A DNA stretch of 39,654 nucleotides from positions 1-39,654 of the forward strand of contig CADEEN010000001.1 in NCBI GenBank assembly GCA_902826345.1. The letters run 5' to 3'. Below, piece after piece: positions 33,742 through 39,654 of this stretch; position 1 is the first letter of the stretch, and each line of letters opens with the position of its first letter. Under the pieces are notes generated by a model, which saw nothing but the letters and a program-made list of their open reading frames with translations, did not search any database and was not told the origin of the DNA. Origin of the DNA: an uncultured Burkholderiales bacterium. GTDB lineage: Bacteria > Pseudomonadota > Gammaproteobacteria > Burkholderiales > Burkholderiaceae_C. The translations under genes and the position numbers were made by a program.

Positions 33742-34107
33742 TCAGATAACGCGCCGCGGCGCCGCCGTTTGCACATCGCCGCTGTTGGGCGTGCCGGTGG
33801 GTTCGATCAGCAGCAGGTGAACTTCGCCCACCGCGCGCGGCCGGTGCTCGATGCCTTTGGGCACGATGAACATCTGCCCCGGCCCGAGGGTGACGGTGCC
33901 CTCCGGCCCGCCCCGCAAGTCGATCTGCAACTCACCCCTCAACACAAGAAAAAAGTCGTCGCTGTCGGCATGCGAGTGCCAGCTGAACTCGCCTTGCACC
34001 TTGACGACCATCACGTCGTGGCCGTTGTACTCGGCCACGGTGCGCGGCGCCCAATGGTCGTGGAACAGGGTCAGCTTGTGCTGCAGGTCGATGGCTTGGG
34101 TGGTCAT
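33742..34107 (-). CDS. Small single-domain cupin protein
   Basis: Start at MTTQAIDLQHKLTLF, 121 aa. Cupin motifs WHSHADSDDFFLVLRGEL and MFIVPKGIEHRP. The long upstream part of the track ORF is antisense to the AraC gene and is discarded. Confidence 0.75.
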   Translation of the reverse strand: MTTQAIDLQHKLTLFHDHWAPRTVAEYNGHDVMVVKVQGEFSWHSHADSDDFFLVLRGELQIDLRGGPEGTVTLGPGQMFIVPKGIEHRPRAVGEVHLLLIEPTGTPNSGDVQTAAPRRVI

Positions 34108-34155
34108 GGGCGGACGATGCCAGCGCGCGGCGCCCGTGTCTTGTACGCTTGTTGC

Positions 34156-35007
34156 ATGGCGATGAACGAGTGGGCGCGTTACCGGCGCGGGCCGATCGAC
34201 GGCGTGACGCGATTCGACGCGCGCTTCGTCGGCCATGTCTTCGAGCGCCACAGCCACGACACGTTCTCGATCGGCGTCACCACCGGCGGCGTGCAGCGTT
34301 TCGATTGCCGCGGCGCGCGCCATGACAGCGTGCCCGGCGACATCATCCTGTTCAACCCGGACGAGATGCACGATGGCCGCGCCGGCGCGCATGAGAGCTT
34401 TTTCTGCTACTCGATGCTGTACGTGGCGCCCGCCGCGCTGAGCGAGATGCTCGGTGGATCGCAAGGCGCAGCGCCGTGCGGACATTGGCGCCGGCCGCAC
34501 GTTCACGACCCGGCGCTGGCGCGCGGGTTGCTCGCGACGATGGCCGCGCTGACGCAACCCGGCGAGACGCTGCGCGCGCAGGCCCTGCTCGCACGGGCGC
34601 TGCGACGGGTGCTGCTCCGCCACGGCGAGGCGCCGCCGCCGGACGTCGGCGCCGATGCGGCCCGGCAGCGCTTGAACAGCGTGCGCGATTTCATCGAAGC
34701 GCACCACGGCGAAGACCTGCGCATCGAGGCGTTGGCCACGCTCGCCGGCCTGTCGCGCGCGCACCTGACGCGCGCCTTCAGCCGCGCCTTCGGCGTGGCG
34801 CCGCACGGCTACCTGAACGCGGTGCGCTTGCGCCGGGCGCAGCAGGCCTTGCTGCGCGGGCAATCCCTCACCGAGGCCGCAGTCGCTTCGGGCTTCGCCG
34901 ATCAGAGCCATTTCACACGCCGCTTCAAGGGCGCGTTCGGCGTGCCGCCGGGCGCCTGGCTGACGCAGATGCATGCGGCGCGCCACCCTGCACAATCACT
35001 CGCTTGA
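34156..35007 (+). CDS. AraC-family transcriptional regulator (cupin-type sensor + HTH_18)
   Basis: Start at MAMNEWARYRRGP. N-terminal AraC-binding-like domain (FERHSHDTFSIGVTTGG). C-terminal dual HTH (LAGLSRAHLTRAFSRAFGVAPHGYLNAVRL...GFADQSHFTRRFKGAFGVPPGAW). Confidence 0.85.
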   Translation: MAMNEWARYRRGPIDGVTRFDARFVGHVFERHSHDTFSIGVTTGGVQRFDCRGARHDSVPGDIILFNPDEMHDGRAGAHESFFCYSMLYVAPAALSEMLGGSQGAAPCGHWRRPHVHDPALARGLLATMAALTQPGETLRAQALLARALRRVLLRHGEAPPPDVGADAARQRLNSVRDFIEAHHGEDLRIEALATLAGLSRAHLTRAFSRAFGVAPHGYLNAVRLRRAQQALLRGQSLTEAAVASGFADQSHFTRRFKGAFGVPPGAWLTQMHAARHPAQSLA

Positions 35008-35039: not shown

Positions 35040-36707
35040 ATGACCACCGCACGCCGCGCCGTGCTGGCGCTGATCGCGCTCGCGCTGCTCAACGCCGCAC
35101 TCAGTTTTCGCAACCTCTGGCCAACGCCCGGCATCACGCTCGACACCCGCCTGGCGCCGGAGTTCGTGGCGCTGTGGCTGCTGTTGTTGGCCGGCGTGGC
35201 CTGGCGCGGCGCGCTGACCGCGCGCGTGGTCACGGTGCTGGCGGCCGCCTGGCTGATGCTGGCGCTGGGCCGCTATGCCGACGTCACCGTGCCGACGCTG
35301 TTCGGCCGCGCGGTGAACCTGTACTGGGACGGCCAGCAGATACCGCGCTTCCTGCTGACCGCATCGCGCGAGTCGCCGGGCTGGCTCGTCGCCGCCGTCG
35401 TCGCCGCGGTCGCGGCTGCGCTGACGGCGCTGTTCATGCTGCTGCGCTGGGCCGTGCACACCGTGGCCCACGATGCCGTGCCGTATGCGCTGCGCACGCG
35501 CTGGACCTGGCTGCCGACGCTGGCCGCGGTGGCCGCCGTGGGGGTGCATCAGGCGGGCGCGGCGCCGGGCGTGACCTGGCATCTGGTGACGCACCCGGTG
35601 ACGCCCACCTACGCGCGCCAGGCCTGGCTGCTCAGCACGGCGTTGTCGCCGCAGCGCCTGGCCGAGACGCTGCCGACCTCGGCCGCGCTGGACGCGGCGC
35701 TGGTGCAACCGGCACAAGCCATCGGCGCCTTGCGCGGCCGCGACTTCAAGTTGTTCTTCCTCGAGTCGTACGGCGCCATGGCCTACGAGCATGCACGCGC
35801 GGCGCCGGCCTTGGCCGCATCGCGGCAGCAGCTCGAACAGGACATCACCGCCAGCGGACGCGTGGTGGCCTCGGCCTTCGTGCGTGCTTCCACCTTCGCC
35901 GGGGCGTCGGAGCTGTCGCACCTGAGCCTGCTGTCGGGCGTGGATCTGTCCGACCCGCTGCGCCACGACCTGATGCTGACGACGCAGCGGCCGACCCTCG
36001 TCTCGCTGTTTCGCGGCGCCGGCTACCAGACCGCCGGCCTGTACCCGGCGCTGAGTTGGGACTGGGACGAGCGCGCGTTCTACGGCTTCGATCTGTTCCT
36101 CGACGCGCGCGAGTTGAACTGGCGCGGCCCGGCGCTGGGTTACTGGAAAGTGCCCGACCAGTACAGCCTGGCGCGTTTCGAGCAACTGCATCCGCCGGGC
36201 GCCGGCGCGGCGCCGCGCTTCCTGTTCTTTCCGACCATCAGCTCGCACCTGCCCTTCGGTCCGGTGCCGCCGTACCAGAGCGACTGGCAGCGCCTGCTGT
36301 CGGCCGACCCATACGGCGCTGAGGTGTCGCGCCGGCTCGTCGCCGCGCCGGTGAACTGGAACGACATGCTGCCCAACTACATCGGCATGTTCGACTACAC
36401 CTACCGCTGGCTCGGCGGCTATTTGCGGCAACCCGAGGCGCGTGAATCGGTGATGCTGTGGGTGGGCGACCACCAGCCCGCGGCCAGCGTCAGCGGCCCC
36501 GGCGCGAGCTGGGACGTGCCGGTGCACATCGTCACGCGCGACCGCGCGCTGTTGCAGCGTTTCATCGCCCAGGGCTTCGTTGCGGGCCTGACACCGGAGC
36601 GCGCACCGCTGGGCGGCATGCACGACCTGACGACGCTGCTGCTGCGCGCCTTGGACGCGCGGCCGCCCGCTGCCAGCGCTATTTCACCAGCGGCCGCACG
36701 CTGGTGA
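35040..36707 (+). CDS. Membrane-anchored alkaline-phosphatase-superfamily protein (LtaS/OpgB/sulfatase-like)
   Basis: 555 aa. About 4-5 N-terminal TM helices, then FKLFFLESYG (metal-binding Glu context), TFAGASELSHLSLLSG (candidate nucleophile region) and WVGDHQP (GDH metal motif). Family-level call only. Confidence 0.6.
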   Translation: MTTARRAVLALIALALLNAALSFRNLWPTPGITLDTRLAPEFVALWLLLLAGVAWRGALTARVVTVLAAAWLMLALGRYADVTVPTLFGRAVNLYWDGQQIPRFLLTASRESPGWLVAAVVAAVAAALTALFMLLRWAVHTVAHDAVPYALRTRWTWLPTLAAVAAVGVHQAGAAPGVTWHLVTHPVTPTYARQAWLLSTALSPQRLAETLPTSAALDAALVQPAQAIGALRGRDFKLFFLESYGAMAYEHARAAPALAASRQQLEQDITASGRVVASAFVRASTFAGASELSHLSLLSGVDLSDPLRHDLMLTTQRPTLVSLFRGAGYQTAGLYPALSWDWDERAFYGFDLFLDARELNWRGPALGYWKVPDQYSLARFEQLHPPGAGAAPRFLFFPTISSHLPFGPVPPYQSDWQRLLSADPYGAEVSRRLVAAPVNWNDMLPNYIGMFDYTYRWLGGYLRQPEARESVMLWVGDHQPAASVSGPGASWDVPVHIVTRDRALLQRFIAQGFVAGLTPERAPLGGMHDLTTLLLRALDARPPAASAISPAAARW

Positions 36708-37419
36708 AGCCACCGTCCACCGGGATCACCTGCCCGGTGATGCGCGACGCCGCGTCCGACAGCAACCACGCCATCACCGCGGCCACGCTGTCGGCCGACT
36801 GCACGCCGCCGAGCGGGTATTGCTTGCCGGCGCCTTCGCGCATGGCCGGCACTTTCAACATGCCGGCGGTCATCGGCGTCTCGGTCATGCCGGGGGCGAC
36901 GACGTTGATGCGCAGGCCGAGCGGCGCGTAGGTGGCCGCGGCGCTGCGCGCCAGCGCTTCGACGCCGCCTTTGGCGGCAGCGATGGCTTCGTGGTTGGCC
37001 ACGCCGATGCGCGCGACGACGGAGCTGGCGAACACAGCCGCACCGGGTGTCGATGATCCACGCAGCGCTTCGACCCAGGCGCCGAGCATGAACACCGCAC
37101 TGTCGAGGTTGATCCGCATCACGTCGCGATATGCCTCGGCGCTGGTGCGGTGCAGCGGCGCGATCAGCGTGCTGCCGACGCAGTGCGCGAGCACGGTCGG
37201 CGGCGCATCGAAAGTCTGTTTGCAAGCGGCGATGGCGGCCGCGGCGCCTTCGGGCGTGGTCGTGTCGGCGGCGATGCGCGCCTCGGCGGGCACGTCTTGC
37301 AGCTGCGCCGCGTCACGGCCGACGGCGGCGACGCGCCAGCCGAGCGCGTGCAACTGCGTGCACAAGGCGCGGCCGATGCCGCCGCGGGCGCCGGTGATGA
37401 GAGCGATCGGTGATGTCAT
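36679..37419 (-). CDS. Short-chain dehydrogenase/reductase-fold protein, atypical (no catalytic Tyr)
   Basis: 246 aa. TGARGGIGRA cofactor motif and INVVAPGMTETPM. The YxxxK position reads IAAAK (HEAIAAAKGGVEAL). Confidence 0.8.
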   Translation of the reverse strand: MTSPIALITGARGGIGRALCTQLHALGWRVAAVGRDAAQLQDVPAEARIAADTTTPEGAAAAIAACKQTFDAPPTVLAHCVGSTLIAPLHRTSAEAYRDVMRINLDSAVFMLGAWVEALRGSSTPGAAVFASSVVARIGVANHEAIAAAKGGVEALARSAAATYAPLGLRINVVAPGMTETPMTAGMLKVPAMREGAGKQYPLGGVQSADSVAAVMAWLLSDAASRITGQVIPVDGGFTSVRPLVK

Positions 37420-37440: not shown

Positions 37441-38565
37441 TCAGGATCGGCTCTTCGACCAGAAGGCCGAGAACGAGCGACAGCGGGTGGGTGGATCGGC
37501 GAAGGCGCGCGGCATCGGCGTGAGATCGAACGCGCTGAACGCCGCGCCGAGGTGCAGGTTGTGCACACCGCGCACGCTCTTCGCACCGGCCAGCGCGGCG
37601 TGCAGCGCGTCTCGCTCGCCGAACCAGCGCCGCGCCGTCAGCGCTTTCATGCGCGTGCCGACGAAACGCCAGCGGCGCTCGCTCCACGGCCACGCGCGAT
37701 GAAAGGCTGCGTCGAGCACGGCCACCGGCAGCGTGCCGGCAGGCGCGTCGGCGAGCGACCAGGGGTGCACGAGCCAGACGTCTCGATCTTTGACGGCCGC
37801 GGCGTCGGGCGCCGAGAAGCCGAGGTCCGCCGGCGGCGCCGCCAGCAGCGGCGGCTCGGCCACCGCGGCATGCTCGCCGCGCTCCGCCGCCACGGCCTGC
37901 GTCGAGCGCGCCAGACGATCGAGCGCGGCGGCGCCGGCATCGATTGCCGTGCCGGCGCTGTGCCACGGCACATCGGCCAGGCGCTGCACGTTGTCGGCCG
38001 TCACCAGGTAGGGCTTGGCGCTGCCGGTGCCGGCCACCCACTGCCACGACAGGTGGTTGCTCGCCAGGTCGCCGTCGAGCAGATGCGCGTACAACCAATC
38101 GGCGCCGGCGCGCCAATGCACCTTGCGCAGGTGCACGACATACGACGCGAGCCACAGGCGCGCGTGGTTGTGCAGGTAGCCGTCGGCATAGAGCGCGCGC
38201 ACCGCAAGGTCGATCACCGGCACGCCGCTGCGGCCCTCGCGGATGTCGGCCGGCAGCTCACGTGTGTACGCCGCGTCGGGCAGCGGGCCGTCGTGCAGCG
38301 ACGTGAAGATCGCGTCGCCGTCATGCCGCCACGCGTGATGGAAAAACTCGCGCCAGCCGAGCTCCATCGCCAGCTTGTGTTCAAGCGGCAAGGCCAGCGC
38401 GCGCATCACGTCGGGCACATGCAGATAGCCGTGCGTAAGGTACGGCGACAGGCGCGTGACGGCGCCGCGCAGGTGGTTGCGCGTGCGCGCGTAGTCGCCC
38501 GGGCGCGCGGCGTGCAGTGCTTGCTGCGCGGCCTCTGGTGTCGGCGTGAAGACTTCAGCCGGCAT
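37441..38565 (-). CDS. Photolyase/cryptochrome-family protein with non-canonical domain order (FAD-binding helical domain N-terminal)
   Basis: 374 aa. Residues ~25-200 carry FAD_binding_7 hallmarks: TRLSPYLTHGYL, ELGWREFFHH, GVPVIDLAVRALYADGYLHNHARLWLASYVV and DGDLASNHLSWQWVAGTGS. There is a C-terminal extension of about 170 aa. The start overlaps the stop of the upstream FeS photolyase gene by 11 nt. Confidence 0.8.
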   Translation of the reverse strand: MPAEVFTPTPEAAQQALHAARPGDYARTRNHLRGAVTRLSPYLTHGYLHVPDVMRALALPLEHKLAMELGWREFFHHAWRHDGDAIFTSLHDGPLPDAAYTRELPADIREGRSGVPVIDLAVRALYADGYLHNHARLWLASYVVHLRKVHWRAGADWLYAHLLDGDLASNHLSWQWVAGTGSAKPYLVTADNVQRLADVPWHSAGTAIDAGAAALDRLARSTQAVAAERGEHAAVAEPPLLAAPPADLGFSAPDAAAVKDRDVWLVHPWSLADAPAGTLPVAVLDAAFHRAWPWSERRWRFVGTRMKALTARRWFGERDALHAALAGAKSVRGVHNLHLGAAFSAFDLTPMPRAFADPPTRCRSFSAFWSKSRS

Positions 38566-39654
38566 GCCCGACCTCGCCCCGCCGGATCGCCGCCGCGCGC
38601 TCGGCGATGCGCGAGCGCTCGTCGGTGGGCACGCGAGCCAGGTTCTTCACCTGCATCACCGTGCGCATGTTCTTCGCCAGCATCGTTTCGTGCCGCGCCA
38701 GGAAATCCCAGTACAGCGTGGTGAACGGGCACGCGCGTTCGCCGACGCGCTCGCCCGGCTTGTAGCGGCAGCCCGCACACAAGCTGCCGCCGCTCTGCCG
38801 CTCGATGTACTTGCCGCTGGCGATGTAGGGCTTGCTGGCCATCAGGCCGCCGTCGCCGTACTGGCTCATGCCGAGCGTGTTCGGCAACTCGACCCACTCC
38901 ACGGCATCCACGTACACCGCGAGGTACCACGCGTGCACCTCTTGCGGCCGCACGCCGTGCAGCAGCGCGTACAGGCCGGTGACCATCAGGCGCTGGATGT
39001 GGTGCGCGTAGCCGTGTTCGAGCGTCTGGCCGAGGGCGTCGGCCATGCAGGCCATGTCGGTCTTCGCGTCCCAGTAGAACGACGGCAGCGCTTCCTGCGC
39101 GTTCATTTCGTTGAGCTCGAGGTAGCCGGGCATCTGCGTCCAGTAGATGCCGCGCACGTACTCGCGCCAGCCGAGGATCTGGCGGATGAAGCCTTCGGCG
39201 CTGTGCAGCGGCACGCGGCCGGCGCGGTAGGCCGCTTCGGCGGCGGCGACGACCTCACGCGCGCCCAGCAGCTTCAGGTTCAGCGCGGACGACACGTGCG
39301 AGTGCCACAACCACGGCTGGCGTGGCCACAGCGCATCCTGCCAGCGGCCGAAGTTCGGCAGGCGCTCGTCGATGAAACGCTGCAGCGCGTGCAGCGCCTG
39401 CTCGCGCGTCACGGCCCAGGCAAAGCTGTCGAGCGCGCCGGGGTGCTCGGCGAAGCGCTGCCGCACGAGCGCGATGACCTCGCGCGTGATCGCATCGGGC
39501 TCGAAGCGTGCACGCTCGGGCACCGCGCCGGGACCCTGCTTGCCGAAGGACTCGCGGTTGTCGGCGTCGAAGTTCCATTGCCCGCCTTCGGGCTGATCGG
39601 GCTCCGCGCCGTCCATCAACACCGCGTGTTTGCGCCGCATCTCGCGGTAGAAGA
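38555..39654 (-). CDS. FeS-cluster bacterial cryptochrome/(6-4) photolyase family protein (FeS-BCP, PhrB/CryB-like). Only the 3' part is present; the N-terminus lies beyond the right edge.
   Basis: The frame stays open to the window end (...FYREMRRKHAVLMDG...). GWREYVRGIYW and HHIQRLMVTG are present. The four-Cys pattern C-x89-C-x2-C-x12-C (ACMADAL ... LCAGCRYKPGERVGERACPF) matches the [4Fe-4S] ligands of this family. Confidence 0.88.
   Translation of the reverse strand, partial: FYREMRRKHAVLMDGAEPDQPEGGQWNFDADNRESFGKQGPGAVPERARFEPDAITREVIALVRQRFAEHPGALDSFAWAVTREQALHALQRFIDERLPNFGRWQDALWPRQPWLWHSHVSSALNLKLLGAREVVAAAEAAYRAGRVPLHSAEGFIRQILGWREYVRGIYWTQMPGYLELNEMNAQEALPSFYWDAKTDMACMADALGQTLEHGYAHHIQRLMVTGLYALLHGVRPQEVHAWYLAVYVDAVEWVELPNTLGMSQYGDGGLMASKPYIASGKYIERQSGGSLCAGCRYKPGERVGERACPFTTLYWDFLARHETMLAKNMRTVMQVKNLARVPTDERSRIAERAAAIRRGEVGHAG

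What the first reader, a model, noticed from the sequence alone, without database searches (positions are those of the whole stretch)
37441..38565. Photolyase-like protein whose two domains appear circularly permuted (FAD domain first, alpha/beta-like domain last)
Canonical photolyases and cryptochromes have an N-terminal alpha/beta domain, a linker, then the C-terminal FAD-binding helical domain.

Here the protein opens directly with the start of the FAD domain. PEAAQQALHAARPGDYARTRNHLRGAVTRLSPYL lines up with E. coli photolyase EEKAAIAQLRQF..YEQQRDFPAVEGTSRLSASL. It then runs through the FAD-contact blocks WREF, HNHARLW and DGDLASNHLSWQW.

After that comes about 170 aa whose motif order resembles the alpha/beta domain. 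DVWLVHPWSL corresponds to LVWFRQDLRL, and WSERRWRFVGTRMKAL corresponds to MSPRQAELINAQLNGL. The protein ends in SFSAFWSK, which corresponds to KVFTPFKNAW, the point where the canonical interdomain linker begins.

So the termini map onto the canonical linker, as expected for a clean circular permutation. I am not aware of a characterised permuted photolyase. The gene overlaps the stop of an FeS-BCP (6-4) photolyase gene by 11 nt and is followed after 21 nt by an atypical SDR, so a three-gene light or UV-damage module is plausible.
Basis: partly seen in the sequence, partly recalled or inferred. Interest (0 to 1): 0.7.

Follow-up and report, generated by a model that had tools for sequence, protein, structure and literature searches.

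The report
Photolyase with swapped domain order (NewPHL-type)

Summary
The ORF is real: minus strand 37441-38565, 374 aa. It overlaps the FeS-BCP gene stop by 11 nt and lies 21 nt before an SDR gene.

- **FAD domain.** Residues ~15-200 are a photolyase FAD domain. All flavin- and CPD-contact residues are invariant in the family. There is no N-terminal alpha/beta domain.
- **C-terminal domain.** Residues ~258-374 fold with high confidence into a small five-stranded alpha/beta domain.
- **Direct tests against the canonical photolyase N-domain failed:** Pfam none, hhalign 0.05-0.1%, Foldseek E=0.59.
- **A bridge exists.** Deinococcus encodes the same kind of FAD domain and a stand-alone 160-173-aa protein as two overlapping genes.
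  - 36 of 45 of these stand-alone proteins hit PF00875.
  - Their profile matches the window-type C-domain at 68% probability (E=5e-5; controls at most 1.3%).

The domain-swap reading is therefore largely supported. It is not a clean permutation, because only profile positions 3-123 of 203 of the FAD domain match.

The family is large: at least 596 species genomes. FeS-BCP lies directly upstream in 50 of 73 assessable loci. From memory it corresponds to the published NewPHL class (Emmerich et al., NAR 2020). I could not check this because the paper tools failed.

The parts
37441..38565 (-). Complete gene for the 374-aa FAD-first photolyase-like protein (stop codon at 37441-37443)
   Evidence: ORF. 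Homologues cover 98-100% of it. AF2 model has pLDDT 95.4 and pTM 0.92.
37909..38565 (-). Residues 1-219: helical FAD-binding / catalytic domain, a shortened photolyase FAD domain
   Evidence: NCBIfam and PDB alignments place residues 15-187 on canonical positions ~187-400. Foldseek aligns ~200-220 columns to class I photolyases at E~1e-8. The model is helical from 10 to 219.
38014..38367 (-). Residues 67-184: core matched by PF03441, carrying the flavin and CPD contact residues E68, W71, R72, N133, R136, W151, D164, D166, N170, W174 and W176
   Evidence: PF03441 E=1.8e-25, profile positions 3-123 of 203. Residue mapping to A. nidulans E283, W286, R287, N349, R352, W367, N386, W390 and W392 comes from the 1owl/1tez alignment. 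These residues are invariant or nearly invariant in 70 homologues. The distal Trp of the canonical triad (An W314) aligns with Ala106.
37795..37908 (-). Residues 220-257: ordered, mostly non-helical linker between the two domains
   Evidence: DSSP of the model, with pLDDT 96-98 in this stretch. Sequence is poorly conserved apart from prolines.
37444..37794 (-). Residues 258-374: small alpha/beta C-terminal domain (five strands and a terminal helix). Conserved motifs are HPW, PWSxxRWxFVxxRM and CxSFSxFW. It is a probable degenerate homologue of the photolyase N-terminal alpha/beta domain.
   Evidence: Secondary structure from two models. hhalign to the Deinococcus stand-alone PF00875-like family: 67.8%, E=4.9e-5, controls <=1.3%. 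Direct tests against canonical N-domains are negative. In full-length proteins the domain occurs only C-terminal to PF03441.
38555..39654 (-). 3' part of the upstream FeS-BCP / (6-4)-photolyase-type gene, cut by the window end. Its last 11 nt overlap the start of the FAD-first gene.
   Evidence: PF04244 DPRP E=1.8e-23, matching profile positions 154-224. The frame is open to the window edge. The overlap is read. An orthologue sits directly upstream in 50 of 73 assessable loci.
36679..37419 (-). Downstream SDR gene, 21 nt after the stop. The catalytic Tyr of YxxxK is replaced by Ile.
   Evidence: PF13561 and PF00106. Junction read. The ANHEAIAAAK motif is conserved in 25 syntenic orthologues. 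An orthologue lies downstream in 21 of 66 assessable loci.

Best explanation
The gene encodes a member of the FAD-first ("inverted topology", NewPHL-type) branch of the photolyase/cryptochrome superfamily.

**Architecture**
- The N-terminal ~220 aa are a shortened helical FAD domain.
- This domain retains every residue that canonical CPD photolyases use to hold the flavin (R72, N133, R136, D164, D166, and N170 at N5) and to bind and split a cyclobutane pyrimidine dimer (E68, W71, W176).
- It also retains the proximal and medial Trp of the electron-transfer chain (W174, W151). The distal Trp is Ala.
- After a ~40-aa linker comes a ~117-aa alpha/beta domain. This is most likely a much-reduced descendant of the usual N-terminal photolyase alpha/beta domain, now attached after the FAD domain instead of before it.

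**Inferred mechanism**
Blue/UV-A light excites reduced FADH-. The flavin donates an electron to a flipped-out CPD, the dimer splits, and the electron returns. By analogy with what I recall of the characterised NewPHLs, the preferred substrate is probably single-stranded DNA.

**Context**
The gene is translationally coupled to an FeS-BCP (6-4)-type photolyase gene. Together they would cover both main classes of UV lesion.

**Shown versus inferred**
- Shown: the architecture, residue conservation, fold, synteny and family size.
- Inferred: enzymatic activity, substrate preference, and where the C-domain packs against the FAD domain.
For: - **Domain order and FAD-domain identity:**
- **Catalytic residues invariant in 70 homologues:**
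- **Confident two-domain model:** pLDDT 95.4, pTM 0.92.
- **C-domain fold:** five-stranded alpha/beta with a terminal helix.
- **C-domain position:** in full-length proteins it occurs only after PF03441.
- **Bridge to PF00875 through the Deinococcus split genes:**
- **One clade:** in a rough FAD-core tree, all FAD-first proteins group apart from canonical photolyases, with the Deinococcus split forms sister to the window type.
- **Size and synteny:** at least 596 species genomes; FeS-BCP upstream in 50 of 73 loci; a canonical photolyase in the same cluster in 18 of 80 loci.
- **Operon signals:** the 11-nt overlap, and no terminator-like site on the gene strand.
Against: - No direct sequence or structure match links the C-domain to canonical photolyase N-domains. 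Homology rests on one intermediate family, with moderate statistics at each step.
- The FAD-domain profile is matched over only 60% of its length.
- The distal Trp of the photoreduction triad is missing.
- The alpha-proteobacterial FAD-first proteins are probably the closest relatives of the characterised NewPHLs. They share only 39% identity in the FAD domain, and their C-halves do not align with this one.
- No activity data exist for this subfamily.
- The NewPHL paper could not be opened, so the link to that class rests on memory.
Confidence: 0.75

Rival explanations
1. The protein is a truncated FAD domain fused to an unrelated Rossmann-like tail. On this view the C-domain is an independent recruit, not a relocated photolyase alpha/beta domain, and the motif resemblances are convergent or due to chance.
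For: - Foldseek with the C-domain alone gives no hit at E<=0.001. The top hits are eIF2B-alpha and ribose-1,5-bisphosphate isomerase folds (E 0.09-0.3). A photolyase appears only at rank 38.
- Pfam finds no PF00875 in any of 70 members, even at E<=10.
- hhalign against canonical N-domain profiles gives 0.05-0.1%, while the FeS-BCP N-domain control gives 15-46%.
Against: - The Deinococcus orthologous arrangement places a PF00875-positive protein exactly where the C-domain sits.
- That family matches the window-type C-domain across the whole domain at E=4.9e-5, with clean controls.
- The photolyase hit has the highest TM-score (0.42) and identity (20%) in the Foldseek list.
- The order of secondary-structure elements matches a trimmed photolyase N-domain.
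Confidence: 0.17
2. The protein is a light sensor or regulator (cryptochrome-like) and not a repair enzyme. It would use the flavin for signalling, possibly together with the neighbouring FeS-BCP and SDR.
For: - The distal Trp of the triad is replaced by Ala.
- The C-domain carries many invariant Trp and His residues of unknown role.
- The adjacent SDR lacks its catalytic Tyr, so the cluster is not obviously made up of enzymes only.
- DASH cryptochromes were also first taken for photoreceptors (own knowledge).
Against: - All CPD-binding and catalytic residues (E68, W71, N133, R136, N170, W176) are invariant or nearly so. Signalling cryptochromes often lose these.
- The gene clusters with repair photolyases in most genomes.
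- There is no output or interaction domain.
- From memory, two NewPHLs repair CPDs in ssDNA.
Confidence: 0.08

Closest known systems
NewPHL class of photolyases (Emmerich et al., Nucleic Acids Res 2020, 'A topologically distinct class of photolyases specific for UV lesions within single-stranded DNA'). Cited from memory; the paper tools failed at every attempt.
   Same: - Bacterial member of the photolyase/cryptochrome superfamily.
- The catalytic FAD domain is at the N-terminus and a smaller C-terminal domain follows.
- No canonical N-terminal antenna domain.
- CPD-type active-site residues.
- Groups with alpha-proteobacterial FAD-first proteins (Ruegeria, Peteryoungia) in the FAD-core tree.
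   Different: - This is a Burkholderiales-type subfamily.
- It shares only 39% identity in the FAD domain with the alpha-proteobacterial type, and the C-halves are not alignable.
- It is tightly coupled to an FeS-BCP gene.
Canonical class I / class III CPD photolyases and DASH cryptochromes (e.g. 1DNP, 1QNF/1OWL, 2J07, 1NP7)
   Same: - FAD-domain fold and sequence: 26-28% identity, Foldseek E~1e-8.
- The same flavin and CPD contacts.
- The proximal and medial Trp are conserved.
   Different: - The domain order is reversed.
- There is no recognisable PF00875 domain.
- The FAD-domain profile is matched only to position 123 of 203.
- The distal Trp is absent.
- NCBIfam scores lie far below the family cut-offs: 86 against 317 for DASH, and 69 against 506 for the E. 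coli type.
Deinococcus two-gene 'split' FAD-first photolyase (e.g. Deinococcus sp. QL22 plasmid, D. misasensis)
   Same: - The FAD-domain protein is 45% identical to window residues 12-201 and is sister to the window type in the tree.
- Same order: FAD part first, alpha/beta part second.
- The alpha/beta protein matches the window-type C-domain profile.
   Different: - It is encoded as two polypeptides (257-269 aa and 160-173 aa) from genes that overlap by 4 nt.
- Its alpha/beta part is still recognisable as PF00875, unlike the window's.
FeS-BCP / CryPro (6-4) photolyases (PhrB type), which is the product of the upstream gene
   Same: Same superfamily, same operon, and a light-dependent DNA-repair context.
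   Different: FeS-BCP has an N-terminal DPRP alpha/beta domain and a four-Cys iron-sulfur site. The window protein has neither.

Membership tests
NewPHL (FAD-first photolyases) | Catalytic FAD-binding domain of the photolyase/cryptochrome superfamily located at the N-terminus | tested here: met
   Residues 15-187 align to canonical positions ~187-400. PF03441 matches at residues 67-184. Foldseek gives E~1e-8 to photolyases, over the FAD domain only.
NewPHL (FAD-first photolyases) | A distinct C-terminal domain follows the FAD domain, and no N-terminal alpha/beta antenna domain is present | tested here: met
   The AF2 model shows a helical domain at 10-219 and an alpha/beta domain at ~258-374. 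PF00875 is not found anywhere in the protein.
NewPHL (FAD-first photolyases) | Sequence clustering with the characterised NewPHLs (Dinoroseobacter shibae and Methylobacterium mesophilicum proteins, as I recall them) | tested here: inconclusive
As a proxy, Roseobacteraceae and Rhizobiaceae FAD-first proteins fall in the same clade. However, they are only 39% identical in the FAD domain, and their C-halves do not align.
NewPHL (FAD-first photolyases) | Light-dependent CPD repair with preference for single-stranded DNA | not testable with these tools
   Only conservation of the CPD-site residues can be shown.
Canonical CPD photolyase / DASH cryptochrome | N-terminal PF00875 alpha/beta domain preceding the FAD domain | tested here: not met
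   The protein starts with the FAD domain. No member of the family has PF00875, even at E<=10.
Canonical CPD photolyase / DASH cryptochrome | Scores above the curated family cut-offs (TIGR02765, PRK10674, TIGR03556) | tested here: not met
   86.3 against 317, 68.7 against 506, and 61.7 against 885 bits.
Canonical CPD photolyase / DASH cryptochrome | Complete Trp triad for photoreduction | tested here: not met
   W174 and W151 are conserved. The distal position (An W314) aligns with Ala106.
Circularly permuted photolyase in the strict sense (same two domains, termini moved to the linker) | The C-terminal domain is homologous to the photolyase alpha/beta domain | tested here: inconclusive
   Direct tests are negative. 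The transitive link through the Deinococcus family is positive: 67.8% and E=4.9e-5 with clean controls, and 36 of 45 members hit PF00875.
Circularly permuted photolyase in the strict sense (same two domains, termini moved to the linker) | A complete FAD domain is retained, so the permutation is clean | tested here: not met
   PF03441 is matched only at positions 3-123 of 203 here, and at most to position 155 in relatives.
Circularly permuted photolyase in the strict sense (same two domains, termini moved to the linker) | The C-domain occupies the same position relative to the FAD domain as the canonical N-domain | not testable with these tools
FeS-BCP / CryPro | DPRP N-terminal domain and a four-Cys [4Fe-4S] site | tested here: not met
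   No PF04244 match. Cys362 is the only Cys among the columns conserved at 90% or more across 70 homologues. hhalign to the FeS-BCP N-domain gives 0.1%.

The most novel reading that the evidence does not exclude
The Deinococcus two-gene form shows that the FAD domain and the alpha/beta domain of a photolyase can be made as separate polypeptides. On this reading the FAD-first architecture did not arise by classical circular permutation (duplication followed by trimming). It arose by gene fission and re-fusion, or by an independent fusion of two ancestral genes in the opposite order. The window's protein would then be a highly reduced end-point of that second fusion route. The split and fused forms together would give a natural system for testing how the superfamily was first assembled.
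Probability: 0.2. Interest if true: 0.6.

Novelty: new member of a known kind. Interest (0 to 1): 0.33.

Why it matters
For annotation, this large family should not be labelled as an ordinary or truncated "deoxyribodipyrimidine photolyase". It has at least 596 species genomes, mostly Burkholderiales, and is usually coupled to an FeS-BCP (6-4) photolyase gene. It is a FAD-first photolyase that probably repairs CPDs, perhaps in single-stranded DNA.

For evolution, the Deinococcus stand-alone alpha/beta proteins link the unrecognisable C-domain of the fused proteins to the canonical photolyase N-domain. They also show that the two halves can exist as separate genes. If this is not already published, it is a useful handle on how the two-domain photolyase fold was assembled.

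It is not a new kind of system.

Tried and rejected
1. **Pfam on the C-domain.** I ran it on the C-domain alone at E<=10, and on all 70 family members. There was no PF00875.
2. **hhalign against the FeS-BCP N-domain.** 0.1%.
3. **hhalign against canonical N-domain profiles.** An E. coli-type profile (74 sequences) gave 0.1%. A profile broadened with 18 canonical photolyases from the loci gave 0.05%.
4. **Foldseek with the C-domain alone.** Nothing significant.
5. **N-domain HMM against six-frame translations** of the 80 loci and the window. It found 18 canonical photolyases but none of the C-domains.
6. **phmmer of the C-domain against 1.84 billion representatives.** I looked for the domain at the N-terminus of canonical photolyases. 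There were none. The one apparent exception, P0308, is a gene fragment read through into DUF3429.
7. **Merged C-domain plus Deinococcus profile.** hhalign added only two template sequences, so this was not a true iteration and it stayed negative.
8. **Profile of the Deinococcus family against PDB sequences.** Only weak photolyase N-domain hits, E 0.37-0.7.
9. **Alpha-type C-domain profile (75 sequences).** No link to the window type, and only 9% to the Deinococcus family.
10. **Literature.** Every paper search and paper reading failed.

Rejected explanations: a pseudogene or assembly artefact (full-length conservation in hundreds of genomes), and a mis-called start codon (homologues align from residues 1-6, and the ATG overlaps the upstream stop).
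Full report
**1. The observation**

The ORF lies on the minus strand at 37441-38565 and encodes 374 aa. Three junction details were read directly from the sequence:
- Its ATG sits inside ATGCCGGCTGA, so it overlaps the stop of the upstream gene by 11 nt.
- The next gene's ATG follows 21 nt after its stop.
- The upstream gene matches PF04244 (DPRP, the FeS-BCP family) from profile position 154 onward. Its frame stays open to the window edge, so it is simply cut by the window.

The downstream gene is an SDR. The gene strand has no terminator-like or sigma-70-like sites between the three genes, which is weakly consistent with one transcript.

**2. The N-terminal half is a photolyase FAD domain**

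- Pfam finds only PF03441, at residues 67-184 against profile positions 3-123 of 203 (E=1.8e-25).
- NCBIfam models place residues 21-182 on DASH positions 228-400 of 431, and residues 36-187 on E. coli-type positions 235-397 of 472. The scores lie far below the family cut-offs.
- PDB sequence search places residues 15-187 on Thermus photolyase 187-365, and residues 67-185 on A. nidulans photolyase 282-402.

From the alignment, the window residues map to A. nidulans residues as follows:

| Window | A. nidulans |
|---|---|
| E68 | E283 |
| W71 | W286 |
| R72 | R287 |
| N133 | N349 |
| R136 | R352 |
| W151 | W367 |
| N170 | N386 |
| W174 | W390 |
| W176 | W392 |

All are invariant or nearly invariant in 70 homologues. 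These are the flavin contacts, the CPD-site contacts, and the proximal and medial Trp of the photoreduction chain (roles from established knowledge of class I photolyases). The distal Trp (An W314) aligns with Ala106.

**3. Structure**

- With a 70-sequence alignment, AlphaFold2 gives pLDDT 95.4 and pTM 0.92.
- The model has helices from 10 to 219, an ordered linker, then strands at 262-267, 279-285, 313-316 and 330-334 with helices between them, and a terminal helix at 365-372.
- Modelled alone, residues 220-374 give the same fold plus a fifth short strand (pLDDT 91.6).
- Foldseek with the whole model hits class I, III, DASH and other photolyases at E~1e-8. In the best-scoring hits only ~200-220 columns align, i.e. 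the FAD domain.
- No solved structure is a close relative: the best identity is 28%.

**4. Is the C-domain a relocated photolyase alpha/beta domain? Direct tests say no**

- Pfam on the C-domain alone, and on all 70 members at E<=10, finds no PF00875.
- hhalign of the C-domain profile gives 0.1% against the FeS-BCP N-domain.
- It gives 0.1% against an E. coli-type N-domain profile. The seed for that profile was checked as identical to 1DNP.
- It gives 0.05% against a profile broadened with 18 canonical photolyases found in the related loci.
- The control, FeS-BCP N-domain against canonical N-domain, gives 15-46%.
- Foldseek with the C-domain alone has no hit at E<=0.001. The top hits are generic Rossmann-like folds (eIF2B-alpha). 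Thermus photolyase 2J07 comes only at rank 38 (E=0.59), although it has the highest TM-score (0.42) and identity (20%) in the list.
- A filter-free phmmer search of 1.84 billion representatives finds the C-domain in 164 proteins. In every full-length one it follows PF03441. It never matches the N-terminus of a ~470-500-aa photolyase.

**5. A bridge through Deinococcus**

*The split arrangement.* tblastn against plasmids found FAD-first relatives in other phyla. In Deinococcus sp. QL22 the FAD-domain protein is only 257 aa. It is 45% identical to window residues 12-201. A 173-aa "hypothetical protein" follows it, and the two genes overlap by 4 nt. The same two-gene arrangement occurs in D. misasensis (258 + 160 aa) and in another Deinococcus genome (269 + 163 aa).

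*Link from the stand-alone proteins to PF00875.*
- The stand-alone family has 47 members.
- 36 of the 45 scanned hit PF00875, best E=2.3e-7.
- Its profile aligns in register from strand 1 with canonical N-domains: 41%, E=2.8e-4, 108 columns.

*Link from the window-type C-domain to the stand-alone proteins.*
- Against the 70-sequence C-domain profile the family gave 6.9%, E=0.005.
- Against a broadened 98-sequence C-domain profile it gave 67.8%, E=4.9e-5, score 33.8, over 112 columns that span the whole domain.
- Two reversed alignments and 30 column-shuffled alignments gave at most 1.3% and a score of 17.4.

*Motif pairs.* The chained alignments pair these motifs:
- DVWLVHPWSL / VVWIHGDSLS / LVWFRQDLRL
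- WSERRWRFVGTRMKAL / IAFPRLAFMYGGVRDI / MSPRQAELINAQLNGL

The third is CRSFSAFWSKS / VTKFFGFWKRV / YKVFTPFKNAW. Its window-to-Deinococcus half is in the alignment. Its Deinococcus-to-E. coli half rests only on a 1.9% alignment, and on the PF00875 match ending at that motif.

*Other lineages.* Bacteroidota FAD-first proteins (Chondrinema, Persicobacter) end in the same FFAFWKK motif. They link to the C-domain profile at 14%, and to the slightly extended one at 41%.

*Assessment.* I judge C-domain homology to the photolyase alpha/beta domain likely, at about 0.7-0.75. It is not proven, because it rests on one intermediate family.

**6. Not a clean permutation**

- The FAD-domain profile is matched only to position ~123-155 of 203 in every FAD-first protein examined.
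- The alpha/beta part is ~117 aa, against ~130-170 aa in canonical enzymes. It appears to lack the first helix.
- A ~40-aa linker precedes it.

**7. Family and context**

- More than 5,750 database hits; the 120 best listed are almost all full-length, ~375-420 aa.
- At least 596 loci in species-representative genomes. The best 80 are mostly Burkholderiales, with a few from other Pseudomonadota (e.g. Dyella, Haliea, Steroidobacterales). The closest are 79% identical.
- An FeS-BCP orthologue lies directly upstream on the same strand in 50 of 73 assessable loci.
- The SDR orthologue lies downstream in 21 of 66.
- 18 of 80 loci also carry a canonical PF00875-type photolyase on the same strand.
- In a rough neighbour-joining tree of FAD cores, window-type, Deinococcus-split, Bacteroidota and alpha-proteobacterial FAD-first proteins form one clade apart from canonical photolyases. 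The split forms are sister to the window type.
- The alpha type (Ruegeria, Peteryoungia and 75 metagenomic relatives) is only 39% identical in the FAD domain. Its C-half does not align with the window type (0.1%) and links only weakly to the Deinococcus family (9%, E=0.004, 133 columns).

**8. Comparison with what is known**

From my own knowledge, Emmerich et al. (Nucleic Acids Res 2020) described "NewPHL". These are bacterial photolyases with an inverted topology: an N-terminal catalytic domain and a C-terminal domain that seals the FAD site. Two members were shown to repair CPDs in single-stranded DNA.

The window protein meets the architectural definition. I could not open the paper or obtain the two characterised sequences, because every paper call failed. 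Membership by sequence clustering is therefore inconclusive. I also cannot say whether the Deinococcus split genes, or the origin of the C-domain, are already published.

**9. Verdict**

This is a new member (Burkholderiales subfamily) of a known kind.
- The most likely function is FAD-dependent, light-driven CPD repair, co-expressed with a (6-4) photolyase.
- Interest is modest. The split Deinococcus genes are the most useful by-product.

Noticed in passing
L082 3884-4657 and 4654-5175; L087 2228-3004 and 3001-3483; L089 2195-3004 and 3001-3492: Deinococcus encodes a FAD-first photolyase as two genes that overlap by 4 nt. The first is a 257-269-aa PF03441 protein and the second is a 160-173-aa stand-alone PF00875-like alpha/beta protein. 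It is a natural split version of the fused architecture.
   Followed up: yes
window 36679-37419 (-): The downstream SDR has Ile in place of the catalytic Tyr of the YxxxK motif. The ANHEAIAAAK motif is strictly conserved in all 25 syntenic orthologues, so this is a conserved atypical SDR and not a decayed one. Its role next to the photolyases is unknown.
   Followed up: partly
L078, L051, L076, L025, L066, L041, L009, L037, L038, L068, L023 and others (18 of 80 loci): A canonical PF00875-type photolyase gene lies on the same strand in the same cluster as the FeS-BCP and FAD-first genes. Some Burkholderiales therefore carry a three-photolyase island.
   Followed up: partly
L081 5167-6516; L085 1102-2373: In the alpha-proteobacterial type (Ruegeria TM1040 megaplasmid, Peteryoungia plasmid), the FAD-first gene is adjacent to an AarF/ABC1/UbiB-family kinase gene, not to an FeS-BCP gene.
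   Followed up: no
L083 1021-5083: The Chondrinema litorale plasmid has a different gene order: an NmrA-like SDR fused to DUF2867, then the 362-aa FAD-first gene, then the FeS-BCP gene downstream. An SDR-type neighbour therefore recurs across phyla, although it belongs to a different SDR family.
   Followed up: partly
L087 3461-3637: A 58-aa DUF2256 gene overlaps the end of the stand-alone alpha/beta gene in D. misasensis.
   Followed up: no
window 35040-36707 (+): A 555-aa membrane protein with a weak sulfatase-domain hit converges on the SDR gene and overlaps its 3' end by 29 nt.
   Followed up: no
window 33742-35007: An AraC-family regulator (AraC_binding plus HTH_18; plus strand) and a small cupin gene (minus strand, 33742-34107) lie just beyond the photolyase cluster. 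The long ORFs listed on both strands here are over-extended because of the high GC content (~70%).
   Followed up: partly
window 38247-38249 (codon for Ala106): The distal Trp of the canonical photoreduction triad (A. nidulans W314) aligns with Ala106. Tyr100 nearby is invariant, and the C-domain has six invariant or nearly invariant Trp residues. The terminal electron donor in this subfamily is therefore unclear.
   Followed up: partly
protein P0308: This metagenomic protein is a FAD-first gene fragment read through into a DUF3429 membrane protein. It is probably a gene-calling artefact, but DUF3429 may be another neighbour of such clusters.
   Followed up: partly
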